A program made the translations under genes and the position numbers. The notes below the pieces were generated by a model. That model was not told the DNA's origin, searched no databases, and saw only the letters and a list, made by a program, of their open reading frames with translations. Shown piece by piece: positions 3,732 to 50,945 of a stretch of 64,000 nucleotides of DNA; position 1 is the stretch's first letter; each line of letters starts with the position of its first letter. Source of the DNA: Candidatus Latescibacterota bacterium. Lineage in GTDB: Bacteria; Latescibacterota; UBA2968; UBA8231. The stretch spans positions 3,840,001-3,904,000 of the forward strand of contig OZ241889.1 in assembly GCA_965203355.1 (NCBI GenBank). Reading direction: 5' to 3'.

Positions 3732-4193
3732 CTAGCCGACCTTGACTTCGACCTGGCGGACGACCTTTTTCGCCTCCTCCTTTTTGGGCAGGAGGAGCGT
3801 CAGGACGCCGTTTTTGAACTTGGCTTCGATCTGCTCTGCCTCGACGCCATCGGGCAGGTGGAAGGCGCGCTCAAAGCGTCCGTAGATGCGCTCCTGGCGG
3901 AAGTACTTGCCTTCCTTTTCCTCGCTAGCCTCGCTCTTTTCGCCCCGCAGCACCAGGGACCCGTCCGCTACGGTGATGTCGATGTCCTTCTCCGCCAAAC
4001 CCGGCAGTTCAGCCGAGATTTCGTAGGAGGCGTCATCTTCCTTGACATCGATGCGCGGGCTGAAAGCCGCGTTGCCCGTCAACGCTGGCAAGCGCGAGTC
4101 CTCGCCAAAAAAGGCATCCACGAGGGTGTCGAATGGGCTGCGCCACGGGCGATTGCCGACGCGAGTGCTGGGTAGTAACGTCTTGAGGGCCAT
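3732..4193 (-). CDS. Hsp20/alpha-crystallin small heat-shock protein
   Basis: PRIDVKE...AELPG...ERIYGRFERAFHLP...AKFKNGVLTLLLPK; AAGGAG RBS. Confidence 0.95.
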   Translation of the reverse strand: MALKTLLPSTRVGNRPWRSPFDTLVDAFFGEDSRLPALTGNAAFSPRIDVKEDDASYEISAELPGLAEKDIDITVADGSLVLRGEKSEASEEKEGKYFRQERIYGRFERAFHLPDGVEAEQIEAKFKNGVLTLLLPKKEEAKKVVRQVEVKVG

Positions 4194-4248: not shown

Positions 4249-4266
4249 ATGCAAAAGCCGTGCCAA
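4249..4266 (-). promoter_or_regulatory. sigma54 (-24/-12) promoter upstream of hsp20
   Basis: Minus strand TTGGCAC-GGCTT-TTGCAT matches the TGGCAC-N5-TTGC consensus; AT-rich tract upstream. Confidence 0.8.
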
Positions 4267-45200: not shown

Positions 45201-45539
45201 ATGGAACTGTTGCACGAAAAAACCTTTCCTTCCGGCTCGACCGAGGCCCAAGTGGTGGCCGTGCTCAAGACCTGTTACGACCCTGAGATTCCGGTCGATA
45301 TTTTTGCCCTCGGCCTGATCTACGACATTGAGGTCAGCGACGCGCAGGATGTCCACGTGACCATGACCTTGACCTCGCCCGCCTGTCCGGTGGCCGGTAC
45401 GCTGCCGCCGGAAATCGAGCACAAGATCAAGGCCCATGTCCCGGGCATCGCCACGGCCCGGGTCGAGGTGGTGTGGGATCCGCCGTGGACGATCGACATG
45501 ATGACCGAAGGTGCCAAACTCGAACTAGGCATGATGTAA
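45201..45539 (+). CDS. sufT: DUF59/SufT-like Fe-S assembly protein
   Basis: YDPEIPVDI, MTLTSPACP, VWDPPW. Confidence 0.85.
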   Translation: MELLHEKTFPSGSTEAQVVAVLKTCYDPEIPVDIFALGLIYDIEVSDAQDVHVTMTLTSPACPVAGTLPPEIEHKIKAHVPGIATARVEVVWDPPWTIDMMTEGAKLELGMM

Positions 45540-45540
45540 C

Positions 45541-46011
45541 ATGAAACTCAGCTCAAGCGAAGAATACGGCTTGCGCTGCCTCTTGCAACTGGCTCGCCAA
45601 ACCCCGGGCAGCCTGACCATTCCGGAGATCAGCCAAGCCGAGGGGATCACCCATCACAACGTCGCCAAGCTCTTGCGCATTCTCCGGCAGGGCGGCTTTG
45701 TGGCCAGTGCCCGCGGCCAGCAAGGCGGCTACGCCCTCGCCAAGCCCCCGGACCAAATCGCCGTGGCCGACGCGGTCGCCGCGTTGGGCGGTCGCCTCTT
45801 CGACGCCGGTTTCTGCGATCACTTCGCCGGCAGCGCGGATTGCTGCACACACTCGCTGACGGCGTGTTCGGTGCGTGCGCTGTGGGAGCAAGTCCAGCAG
45901 GCCGTCGATCGCATTTTATCGCGCACCACCCTCGCCGACCTGCTCGAACAGGGCTACGCCCTCGCCGACGAAGAGGCGTTGCTCGATATATCGGAGAGTA
46001 CGCTGCGATGA
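45541..46011 (+). CDS. Rrf2-family transcriptional regulator (Cys-containing)
   Basis: EEYGLRCL, RGQQGGYAL, C..C..C ligand region. Confidence 0.92.
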   Translation: MKLSSSEEYGLRCLLQLARQTPGSLTIPEISQAEGITHHNVAKLLRILRQGGFVASARGQQGGYALAKPPDQIAVADAVAALGGRLFDAGFCDHFAGSADCCTHSLTACSVRALWEQVQQAVDRILSRTTLADLLEQGYALADEEALLDISESTLR

Positions 46012-47513
46012 AAAAGGTCTTGCTGTGCTGGATCGGTGGAAAAGATTTGGATGCCTCACAAGGAAAAGATGTTGGCGAGGGTCCTATTGCACAGGCCGTA
46101 GAAAAACGCGGGTTTGACGAAGTATTTTTGATTTCAGACTACTCGCCCGACCGTGTAACTGCGTATGTCGAATGGGCTAAGAAAAGGAGCTCGACGCCGT
46201 ACCAACTACGCAGGGTGAAACTTTCAAGCCCGACTCACTTTGGCGAAATCTATGAGGCCGCGAGGGATGTGTGCAAAAAGGCTTTGGGCGACCAACCTGA
46301 TCAAGTCAAATTGACTTTTCACCTTAGTCCTGGTACGCCGGCGATGGCGGCGGTGTGGATCCTCCTAACGAAAATGGGCTTTCCCGCTAAATTAATCGAA
46401 TCTTCAAGAGAGCACGGCGTTCAAACGACGTCTGTTCCCTTTGAGATTCAGGCAAAATATCTGTCCGATCTACTGGCCAAACCCGACGCACAACTCCGCT
46501 CGGCCAGCGCAGGAAAACCCGCAGAAACGGCAGCTTTTGGCGACATAATCTACCGCAGTCAGAAGATGGCGGATTTGGTCGAAAAAGCGAAGCGAGTCGC
46601 AGTGCGGAACGTTCCCGTTTTGCTCGAAGGCGAGTCCGGCACTGGGAAGGAACTTTTTGCCCGCGCCATCCACAAACATAGCCTAAGAAAGGATAAGCCA
46701 TTTATCGCGGTGAATTGCGGTGCAATACCGCGCGATCTGGTGGAAGCCGAACTGTTTGGACACAAAAAAGGCGCGTTTACCGACGCACATGCTGAGCGTA
46801 AAGGTCATTTTGAACAGGCCAATGGCGGTACGCTCTTTTTGGATGAAATCGGCGAGTTACCCAAAAATATGCAGGTGAAATTGTTGCGCGTCCTCCAAGA
46901 AGGCGAGTTCCTCCCCCTCGGTGCATCCACACCCACCAAAGTAGATGTACGCATTGTGGCGGCGACAAATCGGAATCTCGTTGAAGAAGTACGCGAAGGA
47001 CGATTTCGAGAGGACTTGTTTTATCGGATTGTAGTGGCTTACCTCAAACTGCCGCCTTTGCGGGGCCGCGAGGGCGATTTGGGCATGCTGATCCGCCATT
47101 TTATTGATAAAATCAATCAGGAATACGAAAAGGAATACGAAGGACAGCCCGGTTACAAACGTAAAGAAATTTCCCCTAACGGAAAAAATGTTCTCATAAA
47201 CCATTCTTGGCCGGGCAATATACGCGAGTTGGAAAACACCCTGAACCGCGCCATGCTGGCCGACAGCAAAATTCTCGACGAACAAGATATTGAAGATGCA
47301 CTCTTACGCATCGACCATAAGGGCGGCAAAGATATACTGAATCGCCAGTTAGGTGGGGATTTTAACCTAAAGAAACTCATTAGCGAGGTCGCAAGGCACT
47401 ATCTTAAGCGAGCCGACAAAGAATCTCAAAACAACAGAACAGAAGCCGCAAGACTGTTAGGACTTCCCTCTCGTCAGACGTTTGACAACTGGAAGGAGAA
47501 GCACCAAGCATAG
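46008..47513 (+). CDS. sigma54-dependent activator: N-terminal CARF/RtcR-like domain + AAA+ + HTH
   Basis: Start ATG overlaps Rrf2 stop; FHLSPGTPAM CARF-like motif; GESGTGKE, GAFTDA, FLDEIGE, WPGNIREL, C-terminal AARLLG HTH. Confidence 0.85.
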   Translation: MKKVLLCWIGGKDLDASQGKDVGEGPIAQAVEKRGFDEVFLISDYSPDRVTAYVEWAKKRSSTPYQLRRVKLSSPTHFGEIYEAARDVCKKALGDQPDQVKLTFHLSPGTPAMAAVWILLTKMGFPAKLIESSREHGVQTTSVPFEIQAKYLSDLLAKPDAQLRSASAGKPAETAAFGDIIYRSQKMADLVEKAKRVAVRNVPVLLEGESGTGKELFARAIHKHSLRKDKPFIAVNCGAIPRDLVEAELFGHKKGAFTDAHAERKGHFEQANGGTLFLDEIGELPKNMQVKLLRVLQEGEFLPLGASTPTKVDVRIVAATNRNLVEEVREGRFREDLFYRIVVAYLKLPPLRGREGDLGMLIRHFIDKINQEYEKEYEGQPGYKRKEISPNGKNVLINHSWPGNIRELENTLNRAMLADSKILDEQDIEDALLRIDHKGGKDILNRQLGGDFNLKKLISEVARHYLKRADKESQNNRTEAARLLGLPSRQTFDNWKEKHQA

Positions 47514-47527
47514 ACATTTGGCAAAGC

Positions 47528-47543
47528 TGGCACGGAATTTGCT
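47528..47543 (+). promoter_or_regulatory. sigma54 (-24/-12) promoter
   Basis: TGGCAC-GGAAT-TTGCT, 15 bp after the activator stop codon. Confidence 0.85.
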
Positions 47544-47611
47544 TCTCTTCTATCAAGGATATGAAGCGAGGCTCAAATCACCCACCACCCGAAAGAGAAA
47601 GGAGAAATCTA

Positions 47612-47698
47612 ATGCAAAATGTGCTGCCAGCCATACTAGTTTCATTGGCTATATATGCCGGTCAACGCATCATTGATAAGATCGTTGATGGGCTTTAG
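47612..47698 (+). CDS. 28-aa hydrophobic/amphipathic peptide MQNVLPAILVSLAIYAGQRIIDKIVDGL
   Basis: AAAGGAG RBS 7 nt upstream; frame conserved in the duplicate copy. Confidence 0.7.
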   Translation: MQNVLPAILVSLAIYAGQRIIDKIVDGL

Positions 47699-47778
47699 CA
47701 CGTAGCTCAACAGCTCGCTGGGCAGCGTCAATTCGTTGCCCAATCACCCATCACCCCAAAGAGAAAGGAGGTAATCTA

Positions 47779-47856
47779 ATGTTGCCAGCGATATTAATTC
47801 CACTGGCTATATATGCCGGTCAATGCATCATTGATAAGATCATTGATGAGCTTTAG
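47779..47856 (+). CDS. 25-aa paralogous peptide MLPAILIPLAIYAGQCIIDKIIDEL
   Basis: AAAGGAGGT RBS; same stop position as the first copy. Confidence 0.7.
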   Translation: MLPAILIPLAIYAGQCIIDKIIDEL

Positions 47857-47870
47857 CATATAGCCAATAT

Positions 47871-47904
47871 CTCGCTGGGCAGCGTCAACTCGTTGCCCAG
47901 CGAG
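47871..47904 (+). terminator. RNA hairpin after peptide 2 (truncated copy at 47714-47742)
   Basis: CTCGCTGGGCAGCG-TCAACT-CGTTGCCCAGCGAG, one G-U pair, no U-tail. Confidence 0.6.
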
Positions 47905-47940
47905 AGTGCCTTCGTCTAAACCAAACAGAAAGGACTGATT

Positions 47941-48099
47941 ATGGCGCGAAGAACACGCGACGACGCACGGATAAGAACAGTCGAGAAAAAGCTGGGAATC
48001 GGGAACAGCCTCACGAATCCCAACGGACGCAATGCCCGTTCCGATAAAAAACTGGGGAATCTCCGTAAGAGTTGGGAAAAGTCTGGTAAGAAGAAATGA
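47941..48099 (+). CDS. 52-aa basic protein MARRTRDDARIRTVEKKLGIGNSLTNPNGRNARSDKKLGNLRKSWEKSGKKK
   Basis: AGAAAGGA RBS; internal repeat (RDDARIRTVEK / RSDKKLGNLRK; KKLG twice). Confidence 0.7.
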   Translation: MARRTRDDARIRTVEKKLGIGNSLTNPNGRNARSDKKLGNLRKSWEKSGKKK

Positions 48100-48135
48100 A
48101 GTGTCGCAAAATCTATAATGAAAGGAGGTGATTCT

Positions 48136-48219
48136 ATGATAATATGGCAACCGACAGGCCCTTATATCGCTCTTGCCATCTTAAAATCATTATACAAATG
48201 GCTGGCGAAGCGGCGATAG
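48136..48219 (+). CDS. 27-aa Ldr/Fst-like membrane peptide MIIWQPTGPYIALAILKSLYKWLAKRR
   Basis: AAAGGAGGTGA RBS; W..P-hydrophobic helix-W-basic tail. Confidence 0.65.
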   Translation: MIIWQPTGPYIALAILKSLYKWLAKRR

Positions 48220-48229
48220 CAGTTTGTGA

Positions 48230-48271
48230 TTCTATCAGGGGGTGGAGATTTACCTTCGTCTCCTGATAGAA
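48230..48271 (+). terminator. Hairpin closing the peptide cassette
   Basis: TTCTATCAGGGGGTGGAG-ATTTAC-CTTCGTCTCCTGATAGAA: 18-bp stem once G-U pairs are allowed, followed by ATTTCTT. Confidence 0.7.
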
Positions 48272-48276
48272 ATTTC

Positions 48277-48305
48277 TTGACATGTCTTCTTGACACACGT
48301 AGGTT
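48277..48305 (+). promoter_or_regulatory. Possible sigma70 promoter for ATPase operon
   Basis: TTGACA-17 bp-TAGGTT; direct repeat TCTTGACA at 48275 and 48288. Confidence 0.45.
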
Positions 48306-48339
48306 TTCAACGTTCTTCCACTTAACTCGTGAGAAAATC

Positions 48340-49935
48340 ATGGCTATTAAATCTATAACCATAGAAAATTTCAAGGGCATCGGTGACGCCGTGACCATTC
48401 CGATTCGCCCGATCACTTTGCTGTTTGGTAAAAACAGCTCGGGTAAGTCAACAGTGTTGCAGGCCCTGTTATACATGTCACACGTAATAAAATACGAGGA
48501 TCCAGATCCATATAGTACAGATATAGATCGAGGTTATATTGATCTAGGTGGTTTTTATTCTTTAGTACATCGTCATGAATTGGATCGGAATATTCGCATC
48601 CGTATTGAATTCGGCGGTCAAGACCTTGAAAGATTTTATGAAGCTGAAGGTCCTTTTTTAAAGGGGTTACGAGACCCTATCCGTCGTGACTTGTACGGAT
48701 ATCTAAAATCCGTGTGGATAGAAGTTGTAACAGGTTGGAATGCTGAAAAAGATTATACCGAGGTGCTGTCGCTCAGCTTGGGCTTGAATGGAATAGAGTG
48801 GTATTGTAAAACAAATAAAAGACCGGAGATATTTCCTTCTATAAATACAATTGGATCGAATCGCACACAATGGGTTAGTAACCACGGTAGATACGACGGT
48901 ACCAATTATTATAATATTGAGCACCCCATCATTATCGATAATGTAGACAATAAAATGAAGCAAAACATTTTATTAGCACTCACCACTAGGAAGCTAGCCA
49001 AAGATCTTGATCCTCTGTTAGCATCTATACGTCACTCGTATTATAGTATCAGAGATAAGCTGATAAAAATTGGAGTAAGCGTATCGACCAGTATAAGATA
49101 TTTGGGACCAATCCGAAAATTACCCCCTCGCAACTTTGCCCCACAAAAGACACCTAATGAATCAAAATGGGCAACAGGACTAGAGGCATGGAACATACTT
49201 GGTAGAGAAAGAAAATCTCTGATGATCGAAAGTATAAACTACTATATGAAAGATATTTTGAAGCTCGGTTACACTATTAAAAGAAAAGAATACATCTTGC
49301 TGGATATAGATAGCAAGATCATGAAAAACATGGAAGAATCTGACAGCATTAACCGATTAAAAGAGTTACCTCGCCAAGTTAGACTGAAGCTCCACAGCGA
49401 AAAGAATGACGTTGATTTAGATCCCTTAGATGTCGGTTTGGGAATTTCCCAAGTTATTCCCGTTTTGGTGGGAATTAAAAATTTTGCTACGAAGAATATT
49501 TTTGCTGTCGAAAATCCAGAGATTCATCTTCACCCTGCCGCCCAAGTCGCTCTAGGCGACGTGTTTATTGATAGCAAAAATCCAAACAATACTTTACTCA
49601 TTGAGACGCATTCTGAACATCTGTTGTTGAGATTACTTCGACGTGTGCGCGAGACCAATGTTCGTATCTCAGAAAAGTATGATAAGCTGGTAAGGGAAAG
49701 GCGACAAAATTCAATAAATCCTATAGATGAAGATGAGATGCTAGAGCTGGATATTCGTTCTAGGGAATCTGAGCATCCATATCACCACTTAGAGCCAGAC
49801 GATTTATCAATAGTCTATGTCATGCCAACATCAGAGGAAGTCAAGTTAACTCTATTTACTGTAACAGGTGACGGCGACTTCGAAGAACTTTGGCCAGAAG
49901 GCTTTTTTGAAGAACGTATGGAGGAGCTTTTCTAA
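48340..49935 (+). CDS. ABC-type ATPase (AAA_15/AAA_21-like) with DUF3696-like C-terminus
   Basis: IENFKG, GKNSSGKST, GLGISQVIP, VENPEIHLHP, IETHSEH, WPEGFFEER; AT-rich. Confidence 0.85.
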   Translation: MAIKSITIENFKGIGDAVTIPIRPITLLFGKNSSGKSTVLQALLYMSHVIKYEDPDPYSTDIDRGYIDLGGFYSLVHRHELDRNIRIRIEFGGQDLERFYEAEGPFLKGLRDPIRRDLYGYLKSVWIEVVTGWNAEKDYTEVLSLSLGLNGIEWYCKTNKRPEIFPSINTIGSNRTQWVSNHGRYDGTNYYNIEHPIIIDNVDNKMKQNILLALTTRKLAKDLDPLLASIRHSYYSIRDKLIKIGVSVSTSIRYLGPIRKLPPRNFAPQKTPNESKWATGLEAWNILGRERKSLMIESINYYMKDILKLGYTIKRKEYILLDIDSKIMKNMEESDSINRLKELPRQVRLKLHSEKNDVDLDPLDVGLGISQVIPVLVGIKNFATKNIFAVENPEIHLHPAAQVALGDVFIDSKNPNNTLLIETHSEHLLLRLLRRVRETNVRISEKYDKLVRERRQNSINPIDEDEMLELDIRSRESEHPYHHLEPDDLSIVYVMPTSEEVKLTLFTVTGDGDFEELWPEGFFEERMEELF

Positions 49936-49937
49936 CA

Positions 49938-50945
49938 ATGATCTATGAATATGCACTGGATCCCGAACTTGTTGTAACATGGAGTTCTGAAGATTGTGAC
50001 TACTTCATCGACAAGTTTGGCTTTGATAGGGATGGCAACGCAACAGGTCGCATAATATCTAAATATCCATATCCTAATAATAACCGCGACATAAGTTGGG
50101 ATAATATAGTTAGCAAAACGCTCAAAAGAACTTGTCGTACTAGTAAAGAAAAAAAAATCATAGACGTGTTATTGGAAGAAATAAAAAAGGAAAAAAGGAG
50201 TATCACTCGTTCTATTACATCTAGGGATTGGGATCCGAATAAATCATGGCTTGAAAACGCCGAGGCTGAGCAGGAAGCAAATATTAACCGTCCTTTTCGT
50301 GCGATTCTTGCCCGTGAAAACCCAAGAAAAAAAGACTACGTGATTACTAATACAAGGCCTGCGTCCCTCAAAGATCAATCGCCTTGTCTTTGGCGTGTAT
50401 CGAGAGGAATAACCATAGCTCGAAGCACAAAGGTAATGGCAGAGTGCTTTGGTCCAATACTGAGATGTGCAACTTTAATCCTTTTTATAGATCCAAATTT
50501 CGATCCAAAAAAGTCTAAATGGAGAAAACCGTTGAGAAAATTCCTAGAAATTATTTATGATTCAAAGCATCGTGGTGTCATAGTTCAATACCTTACCTCT
50601 AAGAAAATATTTAGTAGCCAAAATGTATGTCAATGTGAATGGAATCTTTTTTGCAAAAAATGCAAATCCCTCAAGGAATACGTTGGCTCTGGATGTGATC
50701 TAATCGTCTGCTGTCTTAACAAAAGAAATAGTGATCAAGAACTCCATGACCGATTTATCCTTACTAACATTGGTGGGGTAACGATAACTTACGGTTTAGA
50801 TATTGGTAGAGGTAAGAATAACATCCATCTTATGGACAGAGAATCCTACAATACTCATTTTAAGCTGTATCGTACACATGTTGAGAAGGAATTTGAGTGT
50901 AAAAAGTGGATGGACGACTCGCGACACTCGAAATCGACATCCTAA
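49938..50945 (+). CDS. Hypothetical protein with C-terminal PLD-like (HDR) domain
   Basis: Starts 2 nt after ATPase stop; LFIDPNF and LHDRFILTNIGGV...GLD motifs. Confidence 0.6.
   Translation: MIYEYALDPELVVTWSSEDCDYFIDKFGFDRDGNATGRIISKYPYPNNNRDISWDNIVSKTLKRTCRTSKEKKIIDVLLEEIKKEKRSITRSITSRDWDPNKSWLENAEAEQEANINRPFRAILARENPRKKDYVITNTRPASLKDQSPCLWRVSRGITIARSTKVMAECFGPILRCATLILFIDPNFDPKKSKWRKPLRKFLEIIYDSKHRGVIVQYLTSKKIFSSQNVCQCEWNLFCKKCKSLKEYVGSGCDLIVCCLNKRNSDQELHDRFILTNIGGVTITYGLDIGRGKNNIHLMDRESYNTHFKLYRTHVEKEFECKKWMDDSRHSKSTS

What the first reader, a model, noticed from the sequence alone, without database searches (positions are those of the whole stretch)
47576..47904. Tandemly duplicated, diverging RBS-peptide-hairpin units
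Seen: two copies, period 166 bp, encode MQNVLPAILVSLAIYAGQRIIDKIVDGL and MLPAILIPLAIYAGQCIIDKIIDEL. They differ by 4 synonymous changes, 5 amino-acid changes (two V/I) and one in-frame 9-nt indel. RBS, frame and stop are preserved, which favours real coding. A hydrophobic N-half plus amphipathic IIDKIxD helix resembles small membrane-active peptides (inference). An in-frame upstream ATG at 47561 exists but lies too close to the predicted transcription start.
Basis: partly seen in the sequence, partly recalled or inferred. Interest (0 to 1): 0.75.

Follow-up and report, generated by a model that had tools for sequence, protein, structure and literature searches.

The report
Sigma-54-driven tandem small peptide genes
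Two diverged copies of a tiny gene for a greasy 25-28-residue peptide sit directly behind a tightly switched promoter in a bacterial defence island, so they may be inducible membrane-acting peptides, but translation and function are unproven.

Summary
Two tandem units (47576-47741, 47742-47907) each carry an AAGGAG ribosome site, an ATG 7-8 nt on, a 28- or 25-codon frame and a stem-loop.

The units are the first cistrons behind an exact sigma-54 promoter (47528-47543), 15 nt after the stop of an RtcR-like CARF-AAA-HTH activator, in a low-GC island. Behind them lie a 52-aa basic protein of a real conserved family, a third peptide-plus-hairpin unit, an AAA_15 defence ATPase and its partner.

In 27 of 44 homologous activator loci a sigma-54 motif starts within 32 nt of the activator's stop, and where present a large gene usually follows closely. 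None of the 44 has a peptide array. Two Acidobacteriota loci carry the same activator-ATPase-partner trio without it. The array is therefore a lineage-specific insert.

A relative about 94% identical, in a sponge metagenome, keeps both units in frame.

Coding is likely but not shown: pN/pS is 0.42 (p 0.21), coding and flanks diverged equally, no homologues were found, and one compensatory RNA pair supports a structured-RNA rival.

Best reading, about 40%: CARF/sigma-54-induced membrane-active peptides. This is a new variant of a known kind, of moderate interest.

The parts
46008..47513 (+). RtcR-like transcription activator with CARF, sigma-54 AAA+ and HTH domains
   Evidence: PADLOC RtcR_PspF2--CARF_AAA_HTH, E 3.6e-195 over residues 2-500. 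Pfam Sigma54_activat 1.9e-72 and AAA_lid_14; the RtcR domain scores below its cut-off. The best 119 relatives listed are 57-77% identical.
47528..47543 (+). Sigma-54 (-24/-12) promoter TGGCACG-N4-TTGCT; inferred start site near 47554
   Evidence: It is one of only 2 exact matches to TGGCAC-N5-TTGCW in 64 kb. The same motif starts within 32 nt of the activator's stop in 27 of 44 homologous loci. The start site is inferred from the standard -12 spacing (established knowledge, not measured).
47576..47741 (+). Unit 1: leader, AAGGAG, pep1 CDS 47612-47698 (28 aa), truncated hairpin 47719-47742
   Evidence: The SD spacer is 7 nt.
47742..47907 (+). Unit 2: leader, AAGGAGG, pep2 CDS 47779-47856 (25 aa), full 15-bp hairpin 47870-47905
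   Evidence: The SD spacer is 8 nt.
47941..48099 (+). 52-aa very basic protein (net charge +12), member of a conserved uncharacterised small-protein family
   Evidence: 55 cluster representatives at E <= 0.001, mostly 41-72% identical (one long multi-stretch hit at 32%). Conserved RSD...EKKLG...RSDKKLG..RK pattern. AlphaFold2 pLDDT 88.6. No Pfam, NCBIfam or PHROG family.
48136..48219 (+). pep3: a third, unrelated 27-aa hydrophobic and cationic peptide with a GGAGG site
   Evidence: net charge +5.
48230..48271 (+). 18-bp stem-loop with a weak T-rich tail; the only terminator-like site found in 47300-48400
   Evidence: (its 66-nt stretch folds at -24.6 kcal/mol, z -4.4).
48340..49935 (+). AAA_15/AAA_21 defence-type ATPase, the conserved cargo of this activator type
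   Evidence: Pfam AAA_15 1.1e-27. PADLOC NsnB 2.8e-44 and AriA 6.3e-31. 27% identical (E 2e-64) to the gene that directly follows the promoter in L107.
49938..50945 (+). 335-aa partner of the ATPase, no known family
   Evidence: No Pfam or PADLOC hit. 26% identical (E 2e-24) to the gene after the ATPase in L106, and E 4e-9 to that in L107. The model was too poor to use, pLDDT 40.

Best explanation
The two units are tandem paralogous small genes. They are the first cistrons of an mRNA that starts at the sigma-54 promoter 47528-47543 and is made only when the adjacent RtcR-like CARF activator is switched on. By analogy with RtcR and type III CRISPR CARF proteins, the signal would be an RNA fragment with a cyclic phosphate end or a cyclic oligonucleotide produced on infection or RNA damage (inferred). 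Each cistron gives a 25-28-residue peptide with a hydrophobic N-terminal helix and an amphipathic, partly acidic C-terminus. The peptide inserts into the cytoplasmic membrane (inferred). Because sigma-54 promoters are essentially silent without their activator (established knowledge), such peptides could be harmful to the cell yet need no antitoxin. On induction they would depolarise or perturb the membrane. That would slow or abort the infected cell alongside the ATPase system encoded further down the same strand (inferred). The stem-loop behind each frame lacks a U tract. It most likely protects or punctuates the mRNA rather than ending it, so read-through can reach the 52-aa gene, pep3 and possibly the ATPase. 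The pair arose by a 166-bp tandem duplication whose right breakpoint lies inside the hairpin. The whole small-gene array is a lineage-specific insert between the promoter and its usual cargo. Shown here: the repeat, the ribosome sites, the promoter, the activator family, the insert status and frame retention in a relative. Inferred: transcription start, translation, membrane action and toxicity.
For: Promoter and activator. A sigma-54 motif starts within 32 nt of the activator's stop in 17 of 25 plus 10 of 19 homologous loci. Ribosome sites: of 12 AAGGAG-(4-9 nt)-ATG cases in the window, 3 are the peptides, and 7 of the other 9 start Pfam-supported genes. A neighbouring small ORF in the same array is a genuine conserved protein, which favours a small-gene operon over a non-coding leader. 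Frame keeping: the 9-nt indel lies in the frame, while the 1-nt indels lie in the spacer and the 3' part. A relative about 94% identical (run X7) has both units. One of its contigs replaces 8 nt of copy 1 with 8 other nt, which stays in frame, and its single 1-nt insertion (behind 47757) is in the leader of unit 2. Hydropathy: GRAVY 0.97 and 1.35; best 19-aa windows 1.45 and 1.73; C-terminal muH 0.84 and 0.59. Defence context: the island at about 46-51 kb has 38-52% GC against about 58-67% in the flanks and carries an NsnB/AriA-like ATPase. RtcR homologues heading defence superoperons are described in passages read from PMC11090510.
Against: No selection signal: pN/pS is 0.42 with Fisher p 0.21, and the coding body (88%) is no better kept than the leader (89%) or the 3' part (86%). 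No relative of the peptide was found. The 45-aa ORF found nothing among 5.8 billion proteins. Motif scans gave 0 viral hits and 8 metagenome hits that are all unrelated larger proteins. tblastn against plasmids found nothing. None of the 44 homologous activator loci has such an array. The RNA is unusually structured, z -6.3. Two of the nine substitutions (R19C and V25I) form a compensatory C-G to U-A pair in an internal stem. Net charge is 0 and -2, unlike the many cationic membrane toxins (the comparison is recalled). No minus-strand promoter-like site that could give an antitoxin RNA was found in 47550-47950.
Confidence: 0.4

Rival explanations
1. The peptides are translated but not toxic. 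They would be small membrane or accessory proteins that tune the system, for example by modulating the activator, the ATPase pair or a membrane sensor, like many bacterial small membrane proteins.
For: The coding evidence is the same as above. Net charge of 0 and -2 is not typical of pore formers. The array also holds a conserved non-hydrophobic 52-aa protein whose relatives sit beside defence ATPases or restriction genes, which suggests accessory roles.
Against: No partner or conserved co-occurrence could be shown for pep1 or pep2: 0 of 44 related loci have them. Two diverging copies with no detectable constraint are odd for a precise regulator.
Confidence: 0.2
2. The units are modules of a structured, sigma-54-dependent non-coding RNA or 5' leader, and the frames are fortuitous. 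Tandem stem-loop modules would act as RNA, for instance as a protein or RNA sponge or a processed small RNA.
For: The fold z-score is -6.3, with 0 of 100 shuffles as stable. One compensatory pair (C47666-G47684 becoming T47824-A47842) keeps an internal stem in both copies. Coding and flanks diverged equally. No protein relatives were found. Sigma-54-driven small RNAs with repeated modules exist (NrsZ, Qrr; recalled, not checked here).
Against: No Rfam family matches at E <= 1. The 5' halves of the two units fold differently, and G47691A breaks a pair. The 8-nt replacement in run X7 changes 3 of the 7 bases of the stem's 5' arm, yet keeps the frame (whether the 3' arm compensates could not be seen). 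SD plus ATG at ideal spacing appears three times, including at an unrelated third peptide.
Confidence: 0.2
3. The frames are regulatory leader peptides (upstream ORFs). Their translation would control how much transcription or translation reaches the downstream genes, including the ATPase operon.
For: They lie between the promoter and the conserved cargo gene. Each stop is followed 20 nt (pep1) or 13 nt (pep2) later by a stable stem. A related locus, L126, has a 37-aa upstream ORF whose stop overlaps the main gene's start.
Against: Hairpins 1 and 2 have no U tract, and no alternative anti-terminator pairing overlaps the frames. The frames contain no runs of a regulatory codon. Four separate small ORFs, one of them a conserved protein, is more than an attenuator needs.
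Confidence: 0.1
4. This is a recent, selectively neutral duplication: one or both copies are decaying remnants with no present function.
For: Divergence is uniform at about 11-14% across leader, frame and 3' part, and pN/pS is not significantly below 1. The breakpoint truncates hairpin 1.
Against: Both copies keep SD, ATG, frame and stop after about 12% divergence. Both are retained, in frame, in a relative whose flanking genes differ by about 6% (106 other letters in 1865 nt), while 47670-47913 differs by only 5 letters and 1 gap in 244 nt.
Confidence: 0.1

Closest known systems
RtcR-homologue-headed defence 'superoperons' (CoCoNuT-associated CARF-ATPase-HTH activators; PMC11090510, passages read)
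   Same: The activator has the same CARF/sigma-54 AAA+/HTH architecture. It sits at the 5' end of co-directional defence genes in a horizontally acquired island. Signal-dependent transcription of effectors is the proposed logic in both.
   Different: The cargo here is an AAA_15 ATPase plus an unknown partner, not a CoCoNuT. Small peptide genes directly behind the promoter appear neither in the passages I read nor in the 44 loci I examined.
Type I toxin-antitoxin toxins (Fst/Ldr, TisB, ZorO, Ibs; review PMC8309996 seen as abstract only; family details recalled)
   Same: The peptide is under 60 aa, has a hydrophobic helix followed by a charged tail, and is encoded in mobile or defence regions. 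Such genes are often multi-copy. Membrane depolarisation is the expected action.
   Different: No antisense RNA or promoter was found. The SD is not sequestered in the predicted fold. There is no sequence family match. Silencing would come from a sigma-54 promoter rather than an RNA antitoxin.
Staphylococcal phenol-soluble modulin alpha operon and delta-toxin (recalled, not checked here)
   Same: Tandem, diverged peptide cistrons of about 20-26 aa, each with its own ribosome site. The peptides are amphipathic helices without signal peptides. Transcription is switched by a dedicated activator.
   Different: The phylum is unrelated and there is no sequence similarity. No export ABC transporter was seen next to the locus. 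The N-terminal half is more hydrophobic than amphipathic.
CARF-fused membrane effector Cam1 of type III CRISPR systems (recalled, not checked here)
   Same: It follows the logic of a CARF-sensed signal leading to membrane perturbation as a defence output.
   Different: In Cam1 the CARF domain is fused to the membrane effector and acts directly. Here the CARF protein would act through transcription of separate peptide genes.
Sigma-54-dependent modular small RNAs such as NrsZ and Qrr (recalled, not checked here)
   Same: A sigma-54 promoter is followed by tandem, similar stem-loop modules, and the predicted structure is strong.
   Different: No Rfam match. Each module carries SD, ATG and an intact frame. 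Only one stem is shared between the two modules.

Membership tests
RtcR-like CARF/sigma-54-activated operon | Activator with an N-terminal CARF domain, a sigma-54 interaction AAA+ domain and a C-terminal HTH | tested here: met
   PADLOC RtcR_PspF2 E 3.6e-195, full length. Pfam Sigma54_activat 1.9e-72. HTH_28 (0.0038) and the RtcR domain (0.0013) both score below their cut-offs.
RtcR-like CARF/sigma-54-activated operon | A -24/-12 (GG-N10-GC) promoter in front of the controlled genes | tested here: met
   Exact TGGCACGGAATTTGCT at 47528-47543. The position is conserved in 27 of 44 homologous loci.
RtcR-like CARF/sigma-54-activated operon | Transcription depends on the activator and its ligand | not testable with these tools
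   No run on record as RNA was found; the one guessed-RNA run that was laid (X11) placed nothing on the stretch. This needs an experiment.
Type I toxin-antitoxin | Small (<60 aa) hydrophobic, helical membrane peptide | tested here: inconclusive
   25-28 aa with GRAVY 0.97 and 1.35. The best 19-aa Kyte-Doolittle window is 1.45 for pep1 and 1.73 for pep2, around the usual cut-off of about 1.6 (the cut-off is recalled).
Type I toxin-antitoxin | Cis- or trans-encoded antisense RNA antitoxin | tested here: not met
   No sigma-70-like site on the minus strand within 47550-47950 and no Rfam antitoxin RNA. A simple consensus scan cannot exclude one.
Type I toxin-antitoxin | Toxicity on overexpression | not testable with these tools
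   This is an experiment.
Type I toxin-antitoxin | Sequence membership of a described toxin family | tested here: not met
   No Pfam or PADLOC hit. The only PHROG hits are two for the 45-aa ORF at E 0.06-0.07.
Transcription attenuator with leader peptide | A terminator stem with a U tract, and alternative pairings overlapping the leader frame | tested here: not met
   Hairpins 1 and 2 are not called terminator-like and lack a T run. The stems start 20 and 13 nt after the stops.
Described non-coding RNA family | Match to a curated covariance model | tested here: not met
   0 Rfam matches at E <= 1 in 46500-49000.
RiPP or bacteriocin precursor array | Adjacent modification, export or immunity genes | tested here: not met
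   The neighbours are the activator, an AAA_15 ATPase, an unknown 335-aa protein, an Rrf2 regulator and Suf genes.
Phenol-soluble-modulin-like peptides | An amphipathic helix along the whole peptide, and a dedicated ABC exporter | tested here: not met
   The whole-peptide hydrophobic moment is only 0.24 and amphipathicity is confined to the last 11 residues. No transporter was seen among the ORFs scanned.

The most novel reading that the evidence does not exclude
The locus is a transcriptionally wired abortive-infection effector. A CARF domain senses an infection or RNA-damage signal. Its AAA+ domain opens a sigma-54 promoter that is otherwise fully silent. The first products are a burst of antitoxin-free, membrane-depolarising mini-peptides, present in two diverging copies plus a third unrelated one. 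They have been added as a plug-in cassette in front of an ATPase defence system. In this reading, sigma-54 tightness replaces the antitoxin.
Probability: 0.25. Interest if true: 0.7.

Novelty: new variant of a known kind. Interest (0 to 1): 0.5.

Why it matters
RtcR-like CARF activators are predicted to switch on defence operons, but what they switch on first, and how cell-harming outputs are kept silent, is largely untested. If these peptides are translated and membrane-active, they would show small toxic peptides used as a transcription-gated defence output without an antitoxin. They would also add a class of genes that gene callers miss to the parts list of defence islands. The locus also gives a compact system for testing what signal this activator family senses: one activator, one promoter and short reporters. 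If the units act instead as RNA, they would be a new sigma-54-dependent modular RNA in a defence island, which would also be worth knowing.

Tried and rejected
No whole genome is held for the window, so searches of its own genome and its relatives were impossible.

Searches for homologues of the peptides:
- Rfam gave nothing.
- The 45-aa ORF found no candidate.
- The motif YAGQxIIDK gave 0 viral hits and 8 metagenome hits, all chance matches inside unrelated proteins. Run X7 later showed the motif was too strict, because the Q and an I vary.
- A looser motif in viral contigs gave 0 hits.
- tblastn of pep1 against plasmids gave nothing.

Other searches that led nowhere:
- The activator was not found in viral contigs.
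- The single genome-contig scan returned mostly generic sigma-54 activators; only 9 of 80 loci were full length.
- Sequencing runs: no RNA holder is listed. Run X11, guessed to be RNA, laid nothing on the stretch. X4 is identical to the window and adds nothing. X6 gave only scraps.
- The ATPase body and the partner gene are not covered in X7. I draw no conclusion from that gap.
- The 52-aa protein matched no plasmid or phage record by tblastn, no Pfam, NCBIfam or PHROG family, only 'hypothetical' clusters in the Atlas and no PDB fold at E <= 0.001.
- The 335-aa partner modelled too poorly to search, pLDDT 40.
- Three paralogous activator loci in genome G106 showed nothing comparable.
- The 118-aa minus-strand ORF 47794-48150 has no Pfam hit and overlaps the conserved 52-aa gene, so I treat it as spurious.

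No complex prediction was run, because the peptides are shorter than the 30 residues that tool asks for.

The main CARF classification paper could not be found in the library. The name RtcR_PspF2 therefore rests on the PADLOC model label alone. Literature searches found no paper describing peptide genes behind such promoters. That covers the held library only.

Full report
OBSERVATION. Unit 1 (47576-47741) and unit 2 (47742-47907) are direct repeats. The copy offset is 166 nt in the leader, 158 nt in the coding body and 157 nt in the 3' part. pep1 is 47612-47698 (28 aa) and pep2 is 47779-47856 (25 aa). Between start and stop the 24 aligned codons show 4 synonymous and 5 non-synonymous changes: V10I, S11P, R19C, V25I and G27E. 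There is one 9-nt indel just after the ATG, one 1-nt indel in the ribosome-site spacer and one 1-nt indel behind the stop. The 29-nt hairpin core occurs only at these two places in the window and never in 100 shuffles. Hairpin 2 is a 15-bp stem (47870-47905; its 56-nt stretch folds at -31.5 kcal/mol). Hairpin 1 (47719-47742, 9 bp) is the same stem cut short, because the right-hand breakpoint of the duplication lies inside its 3' arm.

The gene ending at 47513 encodes a CARF/sigma-54 AAA+/HTH activator. It matches the PADLOC model RtcR_PspF2 at E 3.6e-195 over its full length, and Pfam Sigma54_activat at 1.9e-72. Fifteen nucleotides after its stop lies TGGCACGGAATTTGCT (47528-47543). This is one of only two exact matches to the sigma-54 consensus in 64 kb. 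The other sits 57 nt upstream of an Hsp20 gene on the minus strand, which suggests that the host uses sigma-54. With the usual -12 spacing the start site is near 47554 (inferred). The region from about 46 to 51 kb has 38-52% GC against about 58-67% in the flanks, so it is an acquired island.

ANATOMY OF THE ARRAY. Four small frames lie between the promoter and the next large gene: pep1, pep2, a 52-aa basic protein (47941-48099) and pep3 (48136-48219, 27 aa, net charge +5). pep3 is followed by an 18-bp stem with a weak T tail (48230-48271), which is the only terminator-like site called in 47300-48400. Next come an AAA_15/AAA_21 ATPase (48340-49935; PADLOC NsnB 2.8e-44, AriA 6.3e-31) and a 335-aa protein with no family. 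All three peptides carry AAGGAG 7-8 nt before the ATG. The window holds 12 AAGGAG-(4-9 nt)-ATG combinations in all. Of the 9 that are not the peptides, 7 start genes with Pfam domains: SufB, SufD, a sulfatase, Hsp20, a 3-keto-disaccharide hydrolase, Sua5 and a cupin protein. The other 2 have no hit. In this DNA the signal is therefore a good predictor of a real start.

COMPARISON WITH RELATED LOCI. The activator family is large: the 119 best relatives listed are 57-77% identical. I examined 44 homologous loci. Nine were full-length hits of the genome scan. Sixteen came from 401 Acidobacteriota genomes. Nineteen came from 401 Myxococcota genomes.
- A sigma-54 motif starts within 32 nt of the activator's stop in 17 of 25 plus 10 of 19 loci.
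- In the loci that have the motif, the first long frame mostly starts 17-77 nt after the stop. The exceptions are at +149, +164 and +191.
- In the window the ATPase ATG is 827 nt after the stop.
- None of the 44 loci has a hydrophobic peptide array.
- Two Acidobacteriota loci (L106, L107) have the same trio without the array. The activator and promoter are followed directly by an ATPase 27% identical to the window's (E 2e-64), then by a partner of about 325 aa (26% identity, E 2e-24; and E 4e-9).
The ATPase pair is thus a recurring cargo of this activator type, and the small-gene array is a lineage-specific insert. Passages of PMC11090510 describe RtcR homologues at the head of co-directional defence superoperons. 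They propose activation by RNA fragments with cyclic phosphate ends. That is the closest published frame for this locus.

THE 52-AA GENE IS REAL. It has 55 cluster representatives at E <= 0.001, mostly 41-72% identical. These share a conserved double RSD...KKLG pattern. AlphaFold2 gives a confident model, pLDDT 88.6. There is no known family or fold.
- In 6 of 8 IMG/VR loci its relative lies between a 547-549-aa frame and a frame of about 330-406 aa. In L108 these are the large terminase subunit and the portal protein.
- Only 2 of 401 Acidobacteriota genomes have a relative.
- One of them, G170, places it 3.7 kb downstream of that genome's RtcR-like activator on the same strand. There it sits between an SNF2/NOV_C helicase and another AAA_15/21 ATPase.
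- The other places it between a type I restriction R subunit and a nucleotidyltransferase.
A genuine small protein inside the array raises the odds that its neighbours are genes too.

CODING OR RNA? The paralogue comparison is uninformative. pN/pS is 0.42 with Fisher p 0.21, and identity is 88% in the frame against 89% and 86% in the flanks. Three things favour coding.
- The ribosome-site statistics given above.
- All three 1-nt indels lie outside the frames, while the length change inside is 9 nt.
- Run X7, a sponge metagenome, holds a relative. Its flank 45500-47364 differs at 106 letters in 1865 nt (about 6%). It carries the activator, the promoter, both units, the 52-aa gene, pep3, the stem and the ATPase start.
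In one 400-nt contig of X7, copy 1 aligns to the window's unit 2 in its 5' half, so it lacks the 9-nt insert. It also has 8 nt replaced by 8 other nt. That keeps the frame and turns the local AGQRI into AGTRV, if the rest is unchanged (the reading of the joints is mine). The stretch 47670-47913 differs by only 5 letters and 1 gap in 244 nt.

For RNA, the 361-nt transcript start folds far better than shuffles, z -6.3. The changes R19C and V25I together convert a C-G pair into U-A in an internal stem that both units keep. Against RNA, the 5' halves of the units fold differently and G47691A breaks a pair. The X7 replacement alters 3 of the 7 bases of that stem's 5' arm, and no Rfam model matches. 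I put translation at roughly 0.7.

SEARCH FOR RELATIVES OF THE PEPTIDES. None was found in the protein collection, in the viral and metagenome motif scans, or in plasmids. These blanks are weak evidence. Frames under 30 codons are rarely called as genes. The motif I scanned with also turned out, from X7, to be too strict.

MECHANISM. The best-supported chain has three steps.
- The CARF domain binds a signal (inferred from the family).
- The AAA+ domain opens the sigma-54 promoter. The promoter and activator are shown; the dependence is inferred.
- The first products are pep1 and pep2, which have a hydrophobic N-terminal half and an amphipathic acidic tail: GRAVY 0.97 and 1.35, 19-aa windows 1.45 and 1.73, C-terminal muH 0.84 and 0.59.
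That composition points to membrane insertion. In a defence island the simplest role is a membrane-perturbing, growth-arresting output. A sigma-54 promoter can keep such an output silent without an antitoxin. The U-less stems most likely stabilise or punctuate the mRNA. Toxicity is inference only, and I give the whole chain 0.4. The rivals are non-toxic accessory small proteins (0.2), structured RNA modules (0.2), regulatory leader frames (0.1) and neutral duplication debris (0.1).

COMPARISON WITH KNOWN KINDS. The locus is a member of the RtcR-like activator/sigma-54 class: the architecture, the promoter and its position were all tested and met. The peptides work most like type I toxins or phenol-soluble modulins, but they are not members of either. 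No antisense partner and no family match were found, and amphipathicity is only C-terminal. The idea of a CARF signal giving a membrane output is known from a fused effector (Cam1, recalled). Here it would run through transcription.

VERDICT. It is a new variant of a known kind, of moderate interest. The limits are as follows:
- There is no RNA or ribosome data.
- Only one orthologue is available, seen indirectly through contig joints with most base differences not listed.
- The 70-77% identical activator loci, which would settle the coding question, could not be fetched.

Noticed in passing
window 47941-48099; L108-L115; L121 (G170); L120 (G088): The 52-aa basic ORF belongs to an unnamed, conserved small-protein family with 55 representatives and a confident two-helix model. 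Relatives lie between the terminase large subunit and the portal protein in phage contigs. In Acidobacteriota, one lies inside an RtcR-like-headed operon just before an AAA_15/21 ATPase, and another lies beside a type I restriction R subunit.
   Followed up: partly
window 46008-50945; L106 1354-6121; L107 1495-5777: A recurring three-gene module: an RtcR-like CARF activator, a sigma-54 promoter at its stop, an AAA_15 ATPase (NsnB/AriA-like) and an unannotated partner of about 325-335 aa that shares an HDR(F/Y) motif. It looks like an unnamed inducible defence system.
   Followed up: partly
window 48136-48271: A third RBS-peptide-hairpin unit. pep3 has 27 aa and net charge +5, and is unrelated in sequence to pep1 and pep2. 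Its ribosome-site region repeats that of unit 2 (GAAAGGAGGTRAT, repeat D4).
   Followed up: partly
window 4250-4265 (-) and 3732-4193 (-): The only other exact sigma-54 promoter match in the window lies 57 nt upstream of an Hsp20 gene, which suggests a sigma-54-dependent heat-shock gene in this host.
   Followed up: partly
L100/L106, first 45 nt after the activator's stop: Two sigma-54-like motifs (CGGCACGGCCATCGCT and TGGCACGGCCATTGCT) lie 20 nt apart. This is a tandem duplication of the promoter itself in an Acidobacteriota relative.
   Followed up: no
window 48510-50920, as seen in run X7: In the relative that is about 94% identical, contigs cover the locus up to 48510 and again from 50920. 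Most of the ATPase body and the partner gene found no cover at 80% likeness. This may be a swapped or strongly diverged cargo behind a conserved activator and small-gene head.
   Followed up: no
L126, 1-175 nt after the activator's stop: A Myxococcota relative has a 37-aa upstream frame between the sigma-54 motif and the large downstream gene. Its stop overlaps that gene's ATG (ATGA).
   Followed up: no
window 47831-47859 (+): A sigma-70-like site (TTGATA-17-TAGCAT, 9 of 12 matches) lies inside the end of pep2 and could give an internal start towards the 52-aa gene. The number of such sites in the region is not above chance (3 found against 1.7 expected).
   Followed up: no
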